From positions 160,001 to 224,000 of IMG/VR virus record IMGVR_UViG_3300049144_000095: 64,000 bases of DNA; one strand, written 5' to 3'. Under the pieces are notes generated by a model. That model saw only the letters and a list, made by a program, of their open reading frames with translations, was not told the DNA's origin and searched no databases. Shown here piece by piece: positions 14,597-64,000 of the stretch. Made by a program: the position numbers and the translations under genes. The stretch is from a virus. Its lineage: Duplodnaviria; Caudoviricetes. Within the stretch, counting starts at the first letter, position 1; every line of letters begins with the position of its first letter.

Positions 14597-14744
14597 GGTT
14601 TCCCTTCCGAGTGAAAAGAGGGCGGGGGTCGTAAGCCCTCGACCGCACGGAGATCTTGCACCAGGAGCGCCGCTACGCGGATCACTGGAGTTGGCCTCTC
14701 CGTACCCGTGCACGGCCAGGTATACGTCCGTGCTGGCACCGTCG

Positions 14745-14864
14745 TGGGAGGAGCGGGATTCGAACCCGCGCGGATTCGCTGACACACGTCATTGTCCATG
14801 GCTGACGTGCAGACGAATCACCCCGGATTACGTCCGGGCCGATAGGCCGCTCTGGCACCCTCCC
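14745..14864 (-). tRNA. atypical tRNA-Tyr(GTA)-like RNA, 120 nt, ~53-nt variable arm
   Basis: acceptor GGGAGGG/TCCTCCC, class-II D arm CCAGAGCGGCCTATCGG, anticodon hairpin CCGGA-CGTAA-TCCGG, T arm GCGGG-TTCGAAT-CCCGC. Confidence 0.6.
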
Positions 14865-14931
14865 GAGAGGATCAGACGACGCCTCTCCGCTGCATCTTCT
14901 TCACCATCTTTCCGGTCTTCTCGCGGTGACG

Positions 14932-15066
14932 CTACGCCGCTTCCTGCCCTCTGGACTGCTCGATCTCGTCGGCCTGCTCGCTGCGTGCACTGATCACCGA
15001 ATCGATCCATTCCGCAGTGACCGGAGGGTTGAGAGCCCGCTTCACCCTGTCGAGCCGTTCACCCAT
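14932..15066 (-). CDS. small hypothetical protein
   Basis: ATG after GGAAAGGTGAAG RBS. Confidence 0.45.
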   Translation of the reverse strand: MGERLDRVKRALNPPVTAEWIDSVISARSEQADEIEQSRGQEAA

Positions 15067-15112
15067 TTCTTCACCTTTCCGTTGCATCCGAGGTCCACCG
15101 CACCACCGCGCT

Positions 15113-15310
15113 TCACAGCTCGAAGAACTCACTCACCGAGGCTTTGCAGTACGCCGCCAGCAGCGTGGCTTCGTAGAGGGTTGCACGGTGTTCTCCAGCC
15201 AGCATGGCCTCGGCCAGCTCCTGCGACCCGACCAGCTCGGGCAGGTCCCCCGCCAGGTCTGGGTCCACCGCCAGGTGCCGTTCCAGCGCTTCACTCAGAC
15301 GGGTCATCAC
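15113..15310 (-). CDS. hypothetical protein
   Basis: 65-aa ORF coupled to upstream gene. Confidence 0.5.
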   Translation of the reverse strand: MMTRLSEALERHLAVDPDLAGDLPELVGSQELAEAMLAGEHRATLYEATLLAAYCKASVSEFFEL

Positions 15311-15576
15311 TCCCCCGCGAAGTACACCAGCTCGTTCTCGGGGATGACGAGGGGCCAGGCCAGCTCCTCGGTCTCCACGTAGACCATGCCAGAGGTGACC
15401 GAGACCTTCTTCACCGTGGCACGAATCTCTTCGTGGCTGGTCCGGGGGGCCACGTCGATGACGACCTCTTGGCTCGCCTCGAAGTCGCCCAGCTCCCGCG
15501 CGGTGACGAACTCGGGAGCCACCGAGTCCTCGCCCCAGTTCCCGGTGATGTGCCGGTCCAGACTGCCTGCGTCCAT
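15307..15576 (-). CDS. hypothetical protein
   Basis: 89-aa ORF with GGAAAGGGGAAAAGG RBS. Confidence 0.6.
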   Translation of the reverse strand: MDAGSLDRHITGNWGEDSVAPEFVTARELGDFEASQEVVIDVAPRTSHEEIRATVKKVSVTSGMVYVETEELAWPLVIPENELVYFAGE

Positions 15577-15696
15577 CCTTTTCCCCTTTCCTGAGCCGCG
15601 CCAGCGGGCACGGTCGGTACGCTTTTGGGCGGGCTTTTCTGTCGACTCGAACGGCCGGGGGCCCGCTTGACCCTGGTGAGCCTGAAGGCTCCCGCG

Positions 15697-15770
15697 CTCC
15701 CCGGACTGGGTTCGAACCAGTGACCTCTCGATTAACAGTCGAGCGCTGCTGCCAACTGAGCTACCGGGGA
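15697..15770 (-). tRNA. tRNA-Asn(GTT)
   Basis: TCCCCGG/CCGGGGA acceptor, CTCGA-CTGTTAA-TCGAG anticodon arm, TTCGAAC T loop. Confidence 0.92.
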
Positions 15771-15772
15771 TT

Positions 15773-15840
15773 ACAGGTGTGCTGCCAATTACACCATCAC
15801 GACCGAGGCCGTGACTGGGATTCGAACCCAGACCTCCTAT
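15773..15840 (-). ncRNA. circularly permuted tRNA-like unit B (no anticodon loop)
   Basis: order: ATAGG, variable AGGT, T arm CTGGG-TTCGAAT-CCCAG, closed acceptor TCACGGCC-TC-GGTCGTGA, D arm TGGTGTAATTGGCAGCAC, CCTGT (pairs with ATAGG). Confidence 0.65.
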
Positions 15841-15842
15841 TT

Positions 15843-15908
15843 GCTGGCGTGCTTCCCTACACCACTCAGACTGTCGTCCGATCCAGGATTCGAACCTGAG
15901 CCTCCAGC
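15843..15908 (-). ncRNA. circularly permuted tRNA-like unit A (no anticodon loop)
   Basis: order: GCTGG, AGGCT, T arm CAGG-TTCGAAT-CCTG, closed acceptor TCGGAC-GACA-GTCTGA, D arm TGGTGTAGGGAAGCAC, CCAGC (pairs with GCTGG). Confidence 0.6.
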
Positions 15909-15910
15909 CG

Positions 15911-15984
15911 TGGGCCCGGATGGTTTCGCACCACCGACCTCCGGGATTTCACTCCGGCGCTCTGGCTGTCTGAGCTACAGGCCC
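15911..15984 (-). tRNA. tRNA-Phe(GAA), atypical D and T loops
   Basis: GGGCCTG/CGGGCCC acceptor, loop GTGAAAT; T loop TGCGAAA instead of TTCGA; D loop AGACAGCCA lacks GG. Confidence 0.7.
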
Positions 15985-62059: not shown

Positions 62060-62290
62060 CTGAGCCAGGGGGGTAGCGCTGGGCACGGCGCACCTCCTGG
62101 CTCACTCTCTCTCCCCGCTGCACCTGGTACGGGCGGTGCAGCGGGGAGACGCCAAGCGAACGGCGCAAGGAGCAGGTCGCATCGAGATGGGTGGTTCGTC
62201 GGAGCAGGTCAGGGGGTTTCGGCCCGACGGCCAAGCGGTCAACTAACCACCATCGTCCATAGCTTGACGGTCGAACTGAGAGTAAATACC

Positions 62291-62320
62291 TTGCGGCACT
62301 ACCGCAGGATCTTGTACTGT
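62291..62320 (+). promoter_or_regulatory. promoter of the Y RNA array
   Basis: TTGCGG-N18-TACTGT ending 8 nt before the first RNA stem. Confidence 0.6.
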
Positions 62321-62328
62321 TTTTCTTA

Positions 62329-62404
62329 GCACCCGGTGTGAAGGCAACGGTTACTTCTTCTGCAAAAAGAACCCACACCGTAGCCGATTCGGTTAACCGG
62401 GGGC
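62329..62404 (+). ncRNA. short Y RNA-like unit 1 (Ro-binding stem only)
   Basis: GCACCCGG-TGTG...GCAACGGT-TACTTC...ACCGTAGC...GGTTAA-CCGGGGGC. Confidence 0.7.
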
Positions 62405-62421
62405 GTCAACTTCACAGTGGT

Positions 62422-62568
62422 TCTGGAGTCGTTCGGTGTGATAGTGACGGTTACTTCACCTCTGGAGTGAGTAGACCGGTTCAACTCCGGCGACGGCGAA
62501 AGCCCGGTAGTGTAACGGCAGCACGCTAACGTACACCGTTGCGATTTGGTTAACCGGACGACCCCAGA
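62422..62568 (+). ncRNA. YrlA-like Y RNA unit 2 with permuted tRNA domain
   Basis: 15-bp terminal stem, GGTGTG/TTAACC bulged helix, T arm CCGG-TTCAACT-CCGG, GGC-GAAA-GCC, D arm TAGTGTAACGGCAGCAC. Confidence 0.8.
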
Positions 62569-62583
62569 GTCACTGTGATGTGC

Positions 62584-62739
62584 GCAGACAAACCGGCTGG
62601 TGTGTAAGCATCAGTTACTTCCGGTAATCTCTAGGTCGTTGGTTCAAGTCCAACCCGGAGCTTAAACACTTCGGTAGCTCAGTTGGCAGAGCAAGAGACA
62701 AATTGTCACTGGTGCGACTTGGTTAACCAGCCGGTCTGC
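62584..62739 (+). ncRNA. YrlA-like Y RNA unit 3 with permuted tRNA domain
   Basis: CCGGCTGG/CCAGCCGG, TCTCT/AGAGA, AGGTC variable loop, T arm GTTGG-TTCAAGT-CCAAC, closed acceptor CCGGAG/CTTCGG, D arm TAGCTCAGTTGGCAGAGC. Confidence 0.85.
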
Positions 62740-62752
62740 CTGCGTACATGAG

Positions 62753-62781
62753 ATGCCCCCTCCCTGGAGGGGGCATTTTTT
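62753..62781 (+). terminator. intrinsic terminator after the Y RNA array
   Basis: ATGCCCCCTCC-CT-GGAGGGGGCAT followed by a T run. Confidence 0.8.
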
Positions 62782-62802
62782 GTTTGACCGGAAAGGGGAG
62801 AA

Positions 62803-63018
62803 ATGAAAGCAGTCGGTGTCAGATATACGAACATCGACGCCCCCGAGAGTAACGGGTGCGACGGGTGCCTTGCCCTGAAGAACGTAAGGGCCTTCTGTGC
62901 GGATCACCGAGAAGGTCGCCCCTGTCTCTGGTGCCTCGACAGGGGCTACGCCGTGAGGGAAAACCGCTGGTTGCCGTGCGGATGCCGAACGGATCGAGTC
63001 AACGAAGAGGAGAACTGA
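62803..63018 (+). CDS. small Cys-rich (zinc-binding-like) protein
   Basis: CDGC, CLWCLDRG, CGC; GGAAAGGGGAG RBS; directly upstream of the Ro60 gene. Confidence 0.6.
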   Translation: MKAVGVRYTNIDAPESNGCDGCLALKNVRAFCADHREGRPCLWCLDRGYAVRENRWLPCGCRTDRVNEEEN

Positions 63019-63021
63019 ACC

Positions 63022-64000
63022 ATGACCCGTTTCAACATCAAGACAACCCAGCCGAAGGCGAAGGCTCCGGCCATCGGCACCTCTGTGAACCACGAGGGCG
63101 GCACCGGCTACACGCTCCCGGAGAAGGGTGAGCTGTTCAATCTCGCCACCGTCAACTTCGTCGGACAGGACACCTTCTATGAGAAGGGCGTCGACCGGGA
63201 CGCACGCTACAACGGGCTCGTTGAGAGCGTCGCAGTCGACGACTGGTCCTGGTTGCGTGGCATGCTGACATGGCTGCGCTCCGACGCCAACATCCGCACC
63301 GCCTCCCTCACAGGCGCCGCGCACGCCGTGCACCGCCGCCTGGCAGCCGGTCAGTACGACGGCAACGCCGAACTGGTCGACTCCGTGATCCAGCGCGCCG
63401 ATGAGGTCGGCGAGTTCGCCGTGTACTGGCTCGCCACCTTCAAGGGCACCATGCCGAAGCCGGTCAAGAAGGGCCTGGCGATGGCGATGGTGCGCCTCTA
63501 CACGGCCCGCAACGCCCTGAAGTGGGACTCGGGGGCGCGCGGCATGCGTTTCGCCGACGTCATCAACCTCGTCCACCCGAAGCCGCGCGACTCCGAGCAG
63601 GAGGCGCTGTGGAAGTACCTGCTCGACGAGCGCGGGCACAAGGACGGCAGCATCGACACGGTGCCGATGATCGCCGCTCGCAAGCGCTGGTACGACGAGT
63701 TCTCCGACGAGCAGAAGCTGGCCTCGCTCCGCGACGGCTCGGCGTTCCGCGACTGCGGTCTCACGTGGGAGAACGCGTCGTCCGAGCTGAAGGCCCGAGT
63801 CGGCGAGAAGGTGCTATGGGAAGCGATGGCCTCGCACCTGCCCTACATGGCCGCCATACGCAACCTGCGAAACATGGACCAGGCGGGCATCTCGTACACC
63901 ACGGCCAGCAAGCTGGCGGCGCGCATCGCAGACCCGGCGGAGGTGGCCAAGTTCCGGCAGCTTCCGTACCGGTTCCTGTCCGCCTACCTGGCGGCTCCGA
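63022..64000 (+). CDS. rsr: Ro60/Rsr TROVE-domain RNA-binding protein (3' truncated by window)
   Basis: NHEGG.GY...ELF.L...F.G.DTFYE, LR...NIRT, IQRADE, PKPVKKGLA, LKWD...FADVINLVHPKP, LPYMAAIRNLRN. Confidence 0.92.
   Translation, partial: MTRFNIKTTQPKAKAPAIGTSVNHEGGTGYTLPEKGELFNLATVNFVGQDTFYEKGVDRDARYNGLVESVAVDDWSWLRGMLTWLRSDANIRTASLTGAAHAVHRRLAAGQYDGNAELVDSVIQRADEVGEFAVYWLATFKGTMPKPVKKGLAMAMVRLYTARNALKWDSGARGMRFADVINLVHPKPRDSEQEALWKYLLDERGHKDGSIDTVPMIAARKRWYDEFSDEQKLASLRDGSAFRDCGLTWENASSELKARVGEKVLWEAMASHLPYMAAIRNLRNMDQAGISYTTASKLAARIADPAEVAKFRQLPYRFLSAYLAAP

What the first reader, a model, noticed from the sequence alone, without database searches (positions are those of the whole stretch)
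14618..64000. Candidate integrated RNA-mimicry/RNA-protection system: Ro60 + Y RNAs + a family of anticodon-altered tRNA mimics
Seen in sequence: the same replicon segment carries Ro60, three Y RNAs, two permuted tRNA units, two tRNA-like RNAs with rebuilt arms, a tRNA-Phe with altered D and T loops, four normal tRNAs, an RNA chaperone (CspA) and a RelE-like toxin. Established: Ro60/Y RNA is linked to RNA damage responses, and phage tRNAs are proposed to counter host anticodon nucleases. Inference: the element preserves tRNA elbows while removing or altering anticodon loops as a coordinated anti-defence or RNA quality-control strategy.
Basis: inference. Interest (0 to 1): 0.7.

Follow-up and report, generated by a model that had tools for sequence, protein, structure and literature searches.

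The report
Phage Ro60, Y RNAs, anticodon-less tRNA mimics
A 251-kb soil Streptomyces-type phage carries a known Ro60 protein with three Y RNAs and, 46 kb away in its tRNA operon, four tRNA-shaped RNAs with no anticodon loop; the RNAs are real, but nothing shows they work with Ro60 as one system.

Summary
Nearly all listed items are real. The Ro60/TROVE gene starts at 63022. Three Y RNAs lie upstream (about 62329-62738) and carry the only three Ro60-handle motifs in the 251-kb genome. Two tandem permuted, anticodon-less tRNA units (15773-15908, minus strand) fill the gap between tRNA-Phe and tRNA-Asn. Two tRNA-shaped RNAs have rebuilt anticodon or variable arms (16619-16704 and 14745-14864). 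tRNA-Phe has an altered elbow, four tRNAs are normal, and CspA lies just outside the coordinates. No RelE-like toxin was found.

Ro60 plus Y RNAs is a known phage module. The permuted units have the same fold as the tRNA-like head of YrlA Y RNAs but lack the Ro60-binding handle. The scan had already noted such handle-less heads on this DNA and in other phages.

The "one integrated system" reading is only partly supported.
- Phage Kradal has Ro60 and three Y RNAs but no such units.
- A complete 326-kb phage without any TROVE gene has the same kind of unit in a tRNA slot.
- The 16619-16704 RNA belongs to a family in 41-kb Streptomyces phages without Ro60.
- This genome has no RtcB or Rnl-type RNA ligase.

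Most likely there are two separately transcribed modules sharing a tRNA-mimicry theme. The handle-less heads and the other mimics are new variants of a known kind, and their function is untested.

The parts
14745..14864 (-). Class-II-like tRNA-shaped RNA ('Tyr-like'). It has a 7-bp acceptor stem, D arm and T arm. A 6-bp stem with a CG(U/C)AA pentaloop replaces the anticodon arm, and there is a roughly 50-nt structured extra arm.
   Evidence: Sequence read. The alignment with sister phage G002 shows compensatory changes in the acceptor stem and the pentaloop stem, and a fully exchanged 7-bp hairpin in the extra arm. ARAGORN and the Rfam tRNA model do not call it. INPHARED has no match.
15696..15770 (-). 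tRNA-Asn(GTT), canonical
   Evidence: ARAGORN; Rfam tRNA 61 bits
15773..15840 (-). Handle-less permuted tRNA-like unit B: 5-bp closing stem, T arm, 7-bp acceptor stem capped by CTCG, D arm.
   Evidence: 88.9 bits to model R1. It is 59/68 identical in G002. Compensatory changes occur in the closing stem, and G-U/A-U switches in the acceptor stem.
15843..15908 (-). Handle-less permuted tRNA-like unit A: same layout, with a 6-bp acceptor stem plus one mismatch, capped by GACA.
   Evidence: 83.2 bits. It is 58/66 identical in G002.
15910..15984 (-). tRNA-Phe(GAA) with an altered elbow: the D loop has no GG and the T loop reads TGCGAAA.
   Evidence: Rfam alignment. 74/75 identical in G002. Kradal's tRNA-Phe has a normal T loop.
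16070..16143 (-). tRNA-Lys(CTT), canonical
16619..16704 (-). tRNA-shaped RNA ('Gly-like'). Acceptor stem, D arm and T arm are normal. A longer irregular hairpin capped by GCAA replaces the anticodon arm.
   Evidence: Rfam tRNA 46 bits, with a 24-nt insert where the model has 11 positions. Homologs 80-82% identical occur in Streptomyces phages Euratis, Vash, AbbeyMikolon (annotated tRNA-OTHER), Sebastisaurus and Heather. The acceptor and T stems covary.
17131..17207 (-). tRNA-Pro(TGG), canonical
61985..62060 (+). tRNA-Ile(GAT), canonical, between the FtsK-like gene and the Y RNA array, as in Kradal.
62329..62405 (+). Y RNA a: Ro60 handle with a small hairpin and no tRNA-like head (YrlB-like).
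   Evidence: Handle motifs; fold; conserved in G002, G001 and Kradal.
62428..62562 (+). Y RNA b: Ro60 handle plus a permuted tRNA-like head (62467-62530) with a short GAAA-capped acceptor stem.
   Evidence: (E 7e-6 to model R1). 93.5% identical in G002.
62585..62738 (+). Y RNA c: Ro60 handle plus a YrlA-type permuted tRNA-like head.
   Evidence: Rfam YrlA 39.1 bits, full length, E 4e-7, below the gathering score. Handle motifs. The acceptor stem covaries with Kradal's.
62750..62786 (+). Intrinsic terminator that closes the Y RNA transcription unit.
   Evidence: 13-bp stem plus T run.
63022..64000 (+). Ro60 (TROVE + vWA) gene. It continues 632 nt beyond the window, 536 aa in all.
   Evidence: 71% identical to the 'Ro-like RNA binding protein' of phages Kradal and Quantum. 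The closest solved structure is Thermus phage phiLo Ro60, 9KOP/9L5Y.
13307..13534 (-). CspA-like cold-shock-domain protein, outside the stated coordinates and next to a dCMP deaminase gene.
   Evidence: PF00313, 100 bits.

Best explanation
The window holds two separately transcribed RNA-gene modules of a jumbo Streptomyces-type phage. They share a theme, tRNA mimicry, and one RNA architecture. They are not shown to be one machine.

MODULE 1 is the known phage Ro60-Y RNA ribonucleoprotein. Three Y RNAs are made from their own promoter-to-terminator unit just upstream of the Ro60 gene. By analogy with studied systems, each docks on Ro60 through the conserved bulged handle. Two of them present a YrlA-type tRNA-like head, presumably to recruit or gate a host factor (shown elsewhere for PNPase; inferred here).

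MODULE 2 is a mixed tRNA/small-ORF operon. Besides five decoding tRNAs it encodes four non-decoding tRNA-shaped RNAs: two tandem handle-less YrlA-type heads in a tRNA slot, one tRNA body with a GNRA-capped hairpin in place of the anticodon arm, and one class-II-like body with a pentaloop and a giant extra arm.

Inferred mechanism: RNase P and RNase Z processing of the flanking tRNAs should release the two heads, probably as one RNA of about 138 nt. They would fold into L-shapes with canonical elbows and cannot decode. They would act independently of Ro60 as tRNA-body mimics, occupying host proteins that read the elbow or acceptor stem. Candidates are processing or modification enzymes, or tRNA-directed toxins and nucleases.

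The structures and their conservation are shown. The processing, the binding partners and any anti-defence role are inferred.
For: - Ro60 and handles: TROVE gene. Exactly three handle motifs in 251 kb, all upstream of Ro60. Terminator after them.
- The same three-Y-RNA layout occurs in G002, G001 and cultured phage Kradal, with covariation.
- Ro60 next to Y RNAs in phages is published: Chen et al. 2014 (PMC4201824, 22 phages) and Thermus phage phiLo (PMC12135203).
- Units A and B: 96% of cells paired, with compensatory changes between two phages. On 16 distinct heads, 93.6% of cells are paired and 19 of 21 pairs show compensatory change.
- A model built from the units alone retrieves Y RNA heads next to Ro60.
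- No handle motif flanks the units.
- The units are about as conserved as real tRNAs: 87-88% against 77-99%.
- Independence from Ro60, point 1: Kradal has Ro60 and Y RNAs, but its Gln-Asn spacer is 17 nt and holds no units.
- Independence from Ro60, point 2: the complete 326-kb contig G116 has a unit abutting tRNA-Ile and tRNA-Ser and no TROVE match by Pfam or by a Ro60 profile.
- Independence from Ro60, point 3: 9 of 27 near-complete contigs sampled through the two pattern scans lack TROVE. The second set of 26 still included three tandem-tRNA artefacts, so the count of true module-bearing genomes is slightly lower.
- Independence from Ro60, point 4: the Gly-like family is present in four complete 41-42-kb Streptomyces phages with no TROVE gene.
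Against: - Capped permuted modules are strongly enriched with Ro60. 29 of 49 and 13 of 26 sampled contigs carry TROVE, against about 0.14% of INPHARED phage records.
- In three other Ro60 phages, modules without the canonical handle lie only 1.5-5.3 kb from Ro60. A functional tie to Ro60 therefore cannot be excluded.
- A sister phage places an RNA ligase inside the Ro60 locus, which fits an RNA-repair context.
- There are no expression, processing or binding data at all.
- The units are known from only two close genomes, so covariation within them is thin.
- 'Ro60-less' genomes may encode a Ro60-shaped protein that sequence models miss.
Confidence: 0.6

Rival explanations
1. One integrated Ro60-centred system. 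The handle-less heads and other anticodon-less mimics act together with the Ro60-Y RNA particle. For example, they could be free copies of the effector-binding domain that tune which host factor the particle recruits, or decoys that protect phage and host tRNAs while Ro60 handles damaged RNA.
For: - The units and Y RNA heads share the same fold.
- Modules are strongly enriched in TROVE-positive contigs.
- Modules without the canonical handle lie within 1.5-5.3 kb of Ro60 in L009, G015 and G022.
- An RNA ligase sits between the Y RNAs and Ro60 in G001.
- A ProQ-C-like gene lies downstream of Ro60 in G000, G001 and Kradal.
Against: - The clusters are 46 kb apart, on opposite strands, in separate transcription units.
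- Kradal has Ro60 and Y RNAs without units.
- The TROVE-less complete genome G116 has a unit in a tRNA slot.
- The Gly-like family occurs in Ro60-less phages.
- The units have no Ro60 handle.
- G000 has no RtcB or Rnl-type ligase.
Confidence: 0.2
2. Non-functional relics or by-products. On this reading the odd RNAs are decaying tRNA genes or duplicated Y RNA heads. They would be tolerated because they fold stably and are trimmed out during tRNA operon processing.
For: - The set of odd tRNA-like genes differs between sister phages. G002 has other ones at analogous places, and Kradal has a tRNA-shaped gene with a roughly 190-nt insert.
- The units are absent from Kradal.
Against: - Base pairing is kept through compensatory changes in the units, the Tyr-like RNA and the Gly-like family.
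- The units are as conserved as genuine tRNAs, in a genome whose longer aligned blocks are 65-88% identical.
- The same design recurs in unrelated low-GC phages.
Confidence: 0.12
3. Precursors of real decoding tRNAs. On this reading they are circularly permuted or intron-bearing tRNA genes that processing and ligation turn into functional tRNAs.
For: - The gene order (3' half, capped acceptor, 5' half) is that of permuted tRNA genes of algae and archaea, as discussed for YrlA in bioRxiv 10.1101/312249.
- Some other phage modules keep an anticodon-like hairpin after the D arm (L212, L169).
Against: - Units A and B have no nucleotides that could form an anticodon loop. Only AA linkers follow the 5-bp closing stems.
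- The Tyr-like loop has 5 nt, and its middle base differs between sister phages.
- The Gly-like arm ends in a GNRA tetraloop.
- The genome has no RtcB or Rnl-type ligase.
- No bulge-helix-bulge splicing system is known in bacteria.
Confidence: 0.05

Closest known systems
YrlA / YrlB bacterial and phage Y RNAs with Rsr (Ro60): Rfam RF02553; Chen et al. 2014, PMC4201824; YrlA head structure, bioRxiv 10.1101/312249
   Same: - Ya, Yb and Yc lie directly upstream of Ro60 and carry a conserved bulged handle with a GNCGA-type 3' motif.
- Two of them have a tRNA-like head laid out as T arm, closed acceptor stem, D arm.
- Units A and B have this same head.
   Different: - Units A and B have no Ro60 handle, lie 46 kb from Ro60 inside a tRNA operon, and are tandem.
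- All of the phage RNAs score below Rfam's gathering threshold: Yc 39 bits, unit B 15 bits.
Thermus phage phiLo Ro60 with Yrl1 and Yrl2 (PMC12135203; PDB 9KOP, 9L5Y)
   Same: Phage-encoded Ro60 with Y-like RNAs just upstream. It is the closest solved structure by sequence (E 7e-22).
   Different: phiLo has two Y-like RNAs, and no tRNA-like head or stand-alone mimic is reported for it. Its PNPase binding was shown experimentally. Nothing has been tested for this phage.
Ro-like RNA-binding protein loci of the cultured Streptomyces phages Kradal, Quantum, Satis and EhyElimayoE (about 186 kb)
   Same: - The Ro60 protein is 71% identical in Kradal and Quantum; the other two share DNA with the window.
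- Kradal has the same order: FtsK-like gene, tRNA-Ile, three Y RNAs, Ro60.
- Kradal has a similar tRNA operon, with Phe, Gln and Asn in the same order.
   Different: - The Y RNAs are not annotated in the Kradal record.
- Kradal has no permuted units between Gln and Asn.
- Kradal carries a different odd tRNA-shaped gene.
Circularly permuted tRNA genes of Cyanidioschyzon merolae and some archaea
   Same: The 3' half is encoded before the 5' half. The acceptor stem is closed in the primary transcript, and the transcript ends pair as an anticodon stem.
   Different: Those genes restore a full anticodon loop by splicing and ligation. Here there are no loop nucleotides and no ligase gene.
Unannotated or 'tRNA-OTHER' genes of the 41-42-kb Streptomyces phages AbbeyMikolon, Vash, Euratis, Heather and Sebastisaurus
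   Same: 80-82% identical to the 16619-16704 RNA over its whole length, including the hairpin that replaces the anticodon arm.
   Different: Those phages are small and lack Ro60. In AbbeyMikolon the gene sits in a short tRNA cluster near the genome end.

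Membership tests
Y RNA (YrlA/YrlB type) | Encoded within about 4 kb of a Ro60/Rsr gene (the criterion of Chen et al. 2014) | tested here: met
   Met for Ya, Yb and Yc, which lie 280-690 nt upstream of Ro60. Not met for units A and B, which lie about 47 kb away on the other strand.
Y RNA (YrlA/YrlB type) | Terminal stem with a conserved bulged Ro60-binding helix (GGUG... 5' strand, GNCGA-type 3' strand) | tested here: met
   Exactly three 5' motifs in the window and in the 251-kb genome, with three matching 3' motifs, all in Ya-Yc. 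Units A and B, the Gly-like RNA and the Tyr-like RNA have none, so they fail this feature.
Y RNA (YrlA type) | tRNA-like head: T arm, loop-closed acceptor stem, D arm, no anticodon loop | tested here: met
   Met by Yb, Yc and units A and B. Ya lacks it and is YrlB-like.
Y RNA (YrlA, Rfam RF02553) | Score at or above the Rfam gathering threshold (69 bits) | tested here: not met
   Yc 39.1 bits (E 4e-7). Unit B 15 bits (E 2.2 in a 351-nt search). Yb, Ya and unit A give no match. Relatives next to Ro60 in seven other loci also score only 27-46 bits.
Y RNA | Physical binding to Ro60 | not testable with these tools
   This needs RNA immunoprecipitation or a gel-shift assay.
Ro60 / TROVE protein | TROVE domain followed by a vWA domain; similarity to solved Ro60 structures | tested here: met
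   TROVE 57 bits, above the cut-off. VWA_2 19.7 bits, below the cut-off. Thermus phage phiLo Ro60 E 7e-22 over residues 18-455. 71% identical to annotated Ro-like proteins of Streptomyces phages.
Canonical decoding tRNA | 5-bp anticodon stem with a 7-nt loop carrying U33 and an anticodon | tested here: not met
   Not met by units A and B (no loop), the Gly-like RNA (long GCAA-capped hairpin) or the Tyr-like RNA (6-bp stem with a 5-nt loop). Met by Asn, Phe, Lys, Pro and Ile.
Circularly permuted tRNA gene (matured to a real tRNA) | Sequence able to restore an anticodon loop after end-joining, plus a joining enzyme | tested here: not met
   Only AA linkers follow the closing stems. The genome has no RtcB and no PF09414 ligase.
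Rsr-YrlBA-RtcBA type RNA repair operon | RtcB or another RNA ligase linked to Ro60 | tested here: not met
   Absent from G000. The genes after Ro60 are an ATP-grasp (Ter type) gene, a ProQ-C-like gene and an SNF2 helicase gene. Sister contig G001 does have a PF09414 RNA ligase between its Y RNAs and Ro60.
RelE/ParE toxin | Match to the toxin family | tested here: not met
   PF05016 gives no match in the genome. Pfam and PHROGs scans of the small ORFs give nothing.

The most novel reading that the evidence does not exclude
The four non-decoding tRNA-shaped RNAs of the tRNA operon would form a deliberate decoy set: two handle-less YrlA heads, the GNRA-capped body and the giant-arm class-II body. 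Each would keep the elbow and acceptor features read by host tRNA-directed enzymes, toxins or defence nucleases, while being useless to the ribosome. Together with the elbow-altered tRNA-Phe and the Ro60-Y RNA particle, they would protect phage translation during infection of Streptomyces. Handle-less heads would then be a widespread, undescribed class of phage counter-defence RNA that also works without Ro60.
Probability: 0.15. Interest if true: 0.85.

Novelty: new variant of a known kind. Interest (0 to 1): 0.55.

Why it matters
The job of the tRNA-like head of bacterial and phage Y RNAs has been unknown since 2014. This phage makes the head both on a Ro60 handle and free in a tRNA slot. Other phages carry the free form with no Ro60 gene at all. 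This suggests the head has a function of its own, and that can be tested directly by pull-downs, processing assays and deletions.

The results also show that cultured Streptomyces phages carry conserved tRNA-shaped genes without anticodons. Standard tRNA finders miss them or label them 'tRNA-OTHER'. This matters for phage annotation and for the debate on why phages carry tRNA genes.

Tried and rejected
- RNA evidence: no RNA holder is listed for the tRNA operon. Five soil-metagenome DNA runs hold it. Laying four of them gave identical sequence over the phage's own stretch, so they added no variants for covariation.
- DnaB as a marker to fetch relatives regardless of Ro60: no loci returned.
- blastn of the units and of the Tyr-like RNA against INPHARED: no match.
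- megablast of window 14000-26000: only short hits to Streptomyces phages.
- RtcB, PF09414 RNA ligase and ParE/RelE: absent from the genome.
- The G001 ligase has no homolog in G000 or G002.
- PHROGs and Pfam on the small ORFs of the tRNA operon and on the large neighbouring ORFs: no informative match.
- Most matches of my covariance model far from Ro60 were tandem-tRNA artefacts (T arm of one tRNA plus D arm of the next). I discarded them after ARAGORN overlap and acceptor-complementarity checks. Chen et al. 2014 warned of the same artefact.
- ARAGORN's 'tRNA-Glu' at 24820-24904 is not supported by Rfam, and I treat it as a false call.
- The sigma-70 promoter scan found nothing in either RNA cluster.
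- I considered the D-arm similarity between unit B and Yb as evidence of common origin. I dropped it because the same D-arm type is common in unrelated phage modules and tRNAs.

Full report
WHAT THE DNA IS
The window is bases 160001-224000 of a 251,159-bp virus record rated 100% complete. It has about 65% G+C. At the DNA level it shows only short similarity to Streptomyces phages. A syntenic sister phage exists: G002, 259,646 bp with terminal repeats, whose longer aligned blocks are 65-88% identical. A related fragment, G001, carries a Ro60 87% identical. The closest cultured relatives by Ro60 are the roughly 186-kb Streptomyces phages Kradal and Quantum, at 71% identity. Five soil-metagenome DNA runs hold the tRNA operon, and no RNA run does.

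CHECKING THE OBSERVATION: Ro60 AND Y RNAs
- A TROVE-domain ORF starts at 63022 and ends 632 nt beyond the window. It is 536 aa, with TROVE above the cut-off and a weak vWA match.
- Its nearest solved relative is the Ro60 of Thermus phage phiLo.
- Upstream lie three RNAs with a common bulged handle. The 5' handle motif occurs exactly three times in the window (none expected by chance) and exactly three times in the whole genome. The 3' motif, of the GNCGA type described by Chen et al. 2014, sits at the three matching places.
- Ya (~62329-62405) has only a small hairpin on its handle. Yb (62428-62562) and Yc (62585-62738) carry a permuted tRNA-like head.
- Yc matches Rfam YrlA over its full length, but at 39 bits against a gathering score of 69.
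- A 13-bp terminator follows the array.
- The same three-RNA array, with covariation in the Yc acceptor stem, precedes Ro60 in G002, G001 and Kradal, where it is unannotated.
- Ro60 with neighbouring Y RNAs is already documented in phages (PMC4201824, PMC12135203).

CHECKING THE OBSERVATION: THE tRNA OPERON
All seven ARAGORN tRNA calls of the genome fall in the window. On the minus strand the operon reads as follows:
- tRNA-Pro, then a small ORF;
- a tRNA-shaped RNA at 16619-16704, then a small ORF;
- tRNA-Lys, then tRNA-Phe;
- unit A (15843-15908) and unit B (15773-15840);
- tRNA-Asn, then small ORFs;
- a 120-nt tRNA-shaped RNA at 14745-14864;
- a terminator-like hairpin near 14618-14640, seen by eye and not called by the scan.

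Units A and B each read as a 5-nt strand, variable region, T arm with TTCGAAT, acceptor 3' strand, 4-nt cap, acceptor 5' strand, U8-N9, D arm with GG, and a 5-nt strand that pairs with the first. Two-nucleotide linkers join them to each other and to the flanking tRNAs.

In G002 the two units lie between tRNA-Gln and tRNA-Asn. They are 87-88% identical, within the 77-99% range of the real tRNAs. Compensatory changes occur in the closing stem of unit B, and G-U/A-U switches in both acceptor stems. Overall 96% of cells are paired, against about 35-45% when partners are slid.

tRNA-Phe has a D loop without GG and a TGCGAAA T loop, and is 74/75 identical in G002. Kradal's tRNA-Phe has a normal T loop.

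The CspA-like gene exists but lies at 13307-13534, outside the stated range and next to a dCMP deaminase gene. I could not find a RelE-like toxin.

WHAT THE UNITS ARE
A covariance model built only from the four unit sequences retrieves the heads of Y RNAs beside Ro60 in this genome, G002, G001, Kradal and more distant Ro60 loci. An 18-sequence alignment of such heads is 93.6% paired, and 19 of 21 pairs show compensatory change. That alignment is fitted to the model, so it leans toward the structure.

The units are therefore YrlA-type heads. The literature describes that head as resembling a circularly permuted tRNA with a closed acceptor stem (bioRxiv 10.1101/312249). The units lack the Ro60 handle, and Rfam YrlA gives unit B only 15 bits. 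Earlier notes of this scan describe the same two units here and in the sister phage, and handle-less heads in other phages. I treated those notes as leads and tested the points below myself.

IS IT ONE SYSTEM WITH Ro60? EVIDENCE FOR A LINK
- 48 of 50 Ro60-positive viral contigs have a head match, mostly right next to Ro60.
- A pattern scan for GAAA-capped heads gave 81 matches, of which 66 have at least 6 of 7 complementary acceptor pairs.
- Of 49 such contigs, 29 carry TROVE, and 13 of the 17 that are at least 90% complete do.
- For comparison, 73 of 50,697 phage records match this Ro60.
- Three Ro60 contigs (L009, G015, G022) have heads without the canonical handle motif 1.5-5.3 kb from Ro60, beside tRNA arrays.
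- G001 has a PF09414 RNA ligase gene between its Y RNAs and Ro60.

IS IT ONE SYSTEM WITH Ro60? EVIDENCE AGAINST AN OBLIGATE LINK
- In this genome the units are 46 kb from Ro60 and on the other strand. The genes between include a DnaB helicase, a protein with a weak sub-threshold Toprim match, a GmrSD-N protein, a 2166-aa pectate-lyase-like protein and an FtsK-like protein.
- Kradal has Ro60 and three Y RNAs but only a 17-nt Gln-Asn spacer. Its only model hits outside the Y RNAs are tandem-tRNA artefacts.
- Across the two sampled sets, 9 of 27 near-complete contigs lack TROVE. The second set still contained three tandem-tRNA artefacts.
- Nine of these were re-checked with a Ro60 profile and again gave nothing.
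- One of them, a complete 326-kb low-GC phage (G116, locus L303), has a TTCG-capped unit with a 5-bp closing stem. It abuts tRNA-Ile on one side and tRNA-Ser on the other. This is the same 'tRNA slot' arrangement as here.
- Several other TROVE-less genomes carry heads on a different handle with an ACAGCAA box.

THE OTHER TWO MIMICS
The 16619-16704 RNA is not an oddity of this genome. Homologs 80-82% identical over the whole length occur in the 41-42-kb Streptomyces phages Euratis, Vash, AbbeyMikolon (annotated 'tRNA-OTHER, Gly/Trp'), Nesbitt, Sebastisaurus and Heather. RemusLoopin has an 80% identical match covering 80% of the length.
- The acceptor and T stems covary.
- The anticodon arm is replaced by a longer irregular hairpin, capped by GCAA in four of the five aligned sequences.
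- Four of these genomes have no TROVE gene.

The 14745-14864 RNA has a class-II-like D arm, a 6-bp stem with a 5-nt loop whose middle base differs between G000 and G002, and a roughly 50-nt extra arm. The 7-bp hairpin in that arm is completely different in sequence but still paired in G002. I found it only in these two phages. The sister phages carry other, non-orthologous odd tRNA-shaped genes at similar places.

DOWNSTREAM OF THE WINDOW
The genome has no RtcB and no Rnl-type ligase. Right after Ro60 come two genes:
- an ATP-grasp protein of the Ter-operon type (PF15632, E 5e-31), not found in G002 or in any other Ro60 locus I hold;
- a protein with a phage ProQ C-terminal-like domain (E 6e-14), which also lies downstream of Ro60 in G001 and Kradal.

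Further on are an SNF2 helicase, an HD-domain protein scoring exactly at the Pfam cut-off, a ParA-like protein and an amidase.

VERDICT
The Ro60-Y RNA part is a new member of a known kind. The handle-less heads in a tRNA slot, the GNRA-capped tRNA body family and the giant-arm RNA are new variants that I did not find described in the papers I could search.

The claim that all of this forms one integrated RNA-protection system is not shown, and several comparisons count against an obligate link. I think the following is most likely, at about 0.6:
- there are two modules with a shared tRNA-mimicry theme;
- the mimics are released by normal tRNA processing;
- they act as non-decoding tRNA bodies on host factors that read the elbow or acceptor stem.

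The structures are shown. The processing, the partners and any defence role are inferred.

Noticed in passing
L002:~728-1780 and L002:~1830-2216 (just beyond the window end, after Ro60): Ro60 is followed by an ATP-grasp gene of the Ter-operon type (PF15632, E 5e-31) and a gene with a phage ProQ C-terminal-like domain (PF24203, E 6e-14). The ProQ-like gene also lies downstream of Ro60 in G001 and Kradal. The ATP-grasp gene is found only in this phage.
   Followed up: partly
L004:2198-2956: In related contig G001 (Ro60 87% identical), a PF09414 RNA ligase gene sits between the Y RNA terminator and Ro60. It has no homolog in G000 or G002.
   Followed up: partly
window 16655-16680 (-) and alignment A8: In the hairpin that replaces the anticodon arm of the Gly-like RNA family, one hexamer stays palindromic while changing sequence (CCCGGG, CCATGG, TCCGGA). 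This could mean RNA-RNA dimerisation or a DNA-level site.
   Followed up: no
L025:11235-11358 and 11369-11448; L060:~2712-2944: Sister phage G002 has a tRNA-shaped gene with a roughly 70-nt insert in place of the anticodon arm, and a neighbour that ARAGORN reads with a 4-nt anticodon. Kradal has an unannotated tRNA-shaped gene with a roughly 190-nt insert. None is orthologous to the odd genes of this window.
   Followed up: no
L205:~1950-2100 (-): A provirus contig has a tRNA-like RNA with a normal open acceptor stem. Its anticodon arm is replaced by a complete GAAA-capped permuted head, so the whole looks like a fused tRNA dimer.
   Followed up: no
L212:~13040-13170; L169:~3000-3130 (-): Some capped permuted modules in phage tRNA arrays keep an anticodon-like stem-loop after the D arm. 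They could be genuine circularly permuted tRNA genes.
   Followed up: no
L009:6040-6260; L145:250-620; L143:880-1200 (-): Permuted heads without the canonical Ro60 handle in three Ro60 phages are flanked by runs of CTGAAG/CTCAAG-like hexamers and long closing stems. This may be a different handle type.
   Followed up: partly
L167, L190, L173, L268, L272, L290, L301: Heads in TROVE-less, mostly low-GC phage genomes sit on a closing stem next to an ACAGCAA box. An earlier scan note links this box to a Ro60-shaped protein in Felix-O1-type phages.
   Followed up: no
window 16433-16487 (-): A roughly 14-bp hairpin whose 5' strand looks like a tRNA acceptor stem plus D arm. BLAST does not find it in G002.
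   Followed up: no
window 24820-24904 (+): ARAGORN calls a tRNA-Glu(ctc) with the anticodon at position 41. Rfam tRNA does not match, and the region is a GC-rich divergent intergenic spacer. It is probably a false call.
   Followed up: partly
window 50391-56891 (+); 25245-25829 (+): A 2166-aa protein with a pectate-lyase-like domain, possibly a tail fibre or depolymerase, and a protein with a GmrSD N-terminal domain lie between the two RNA clusters.
   Followed up: no
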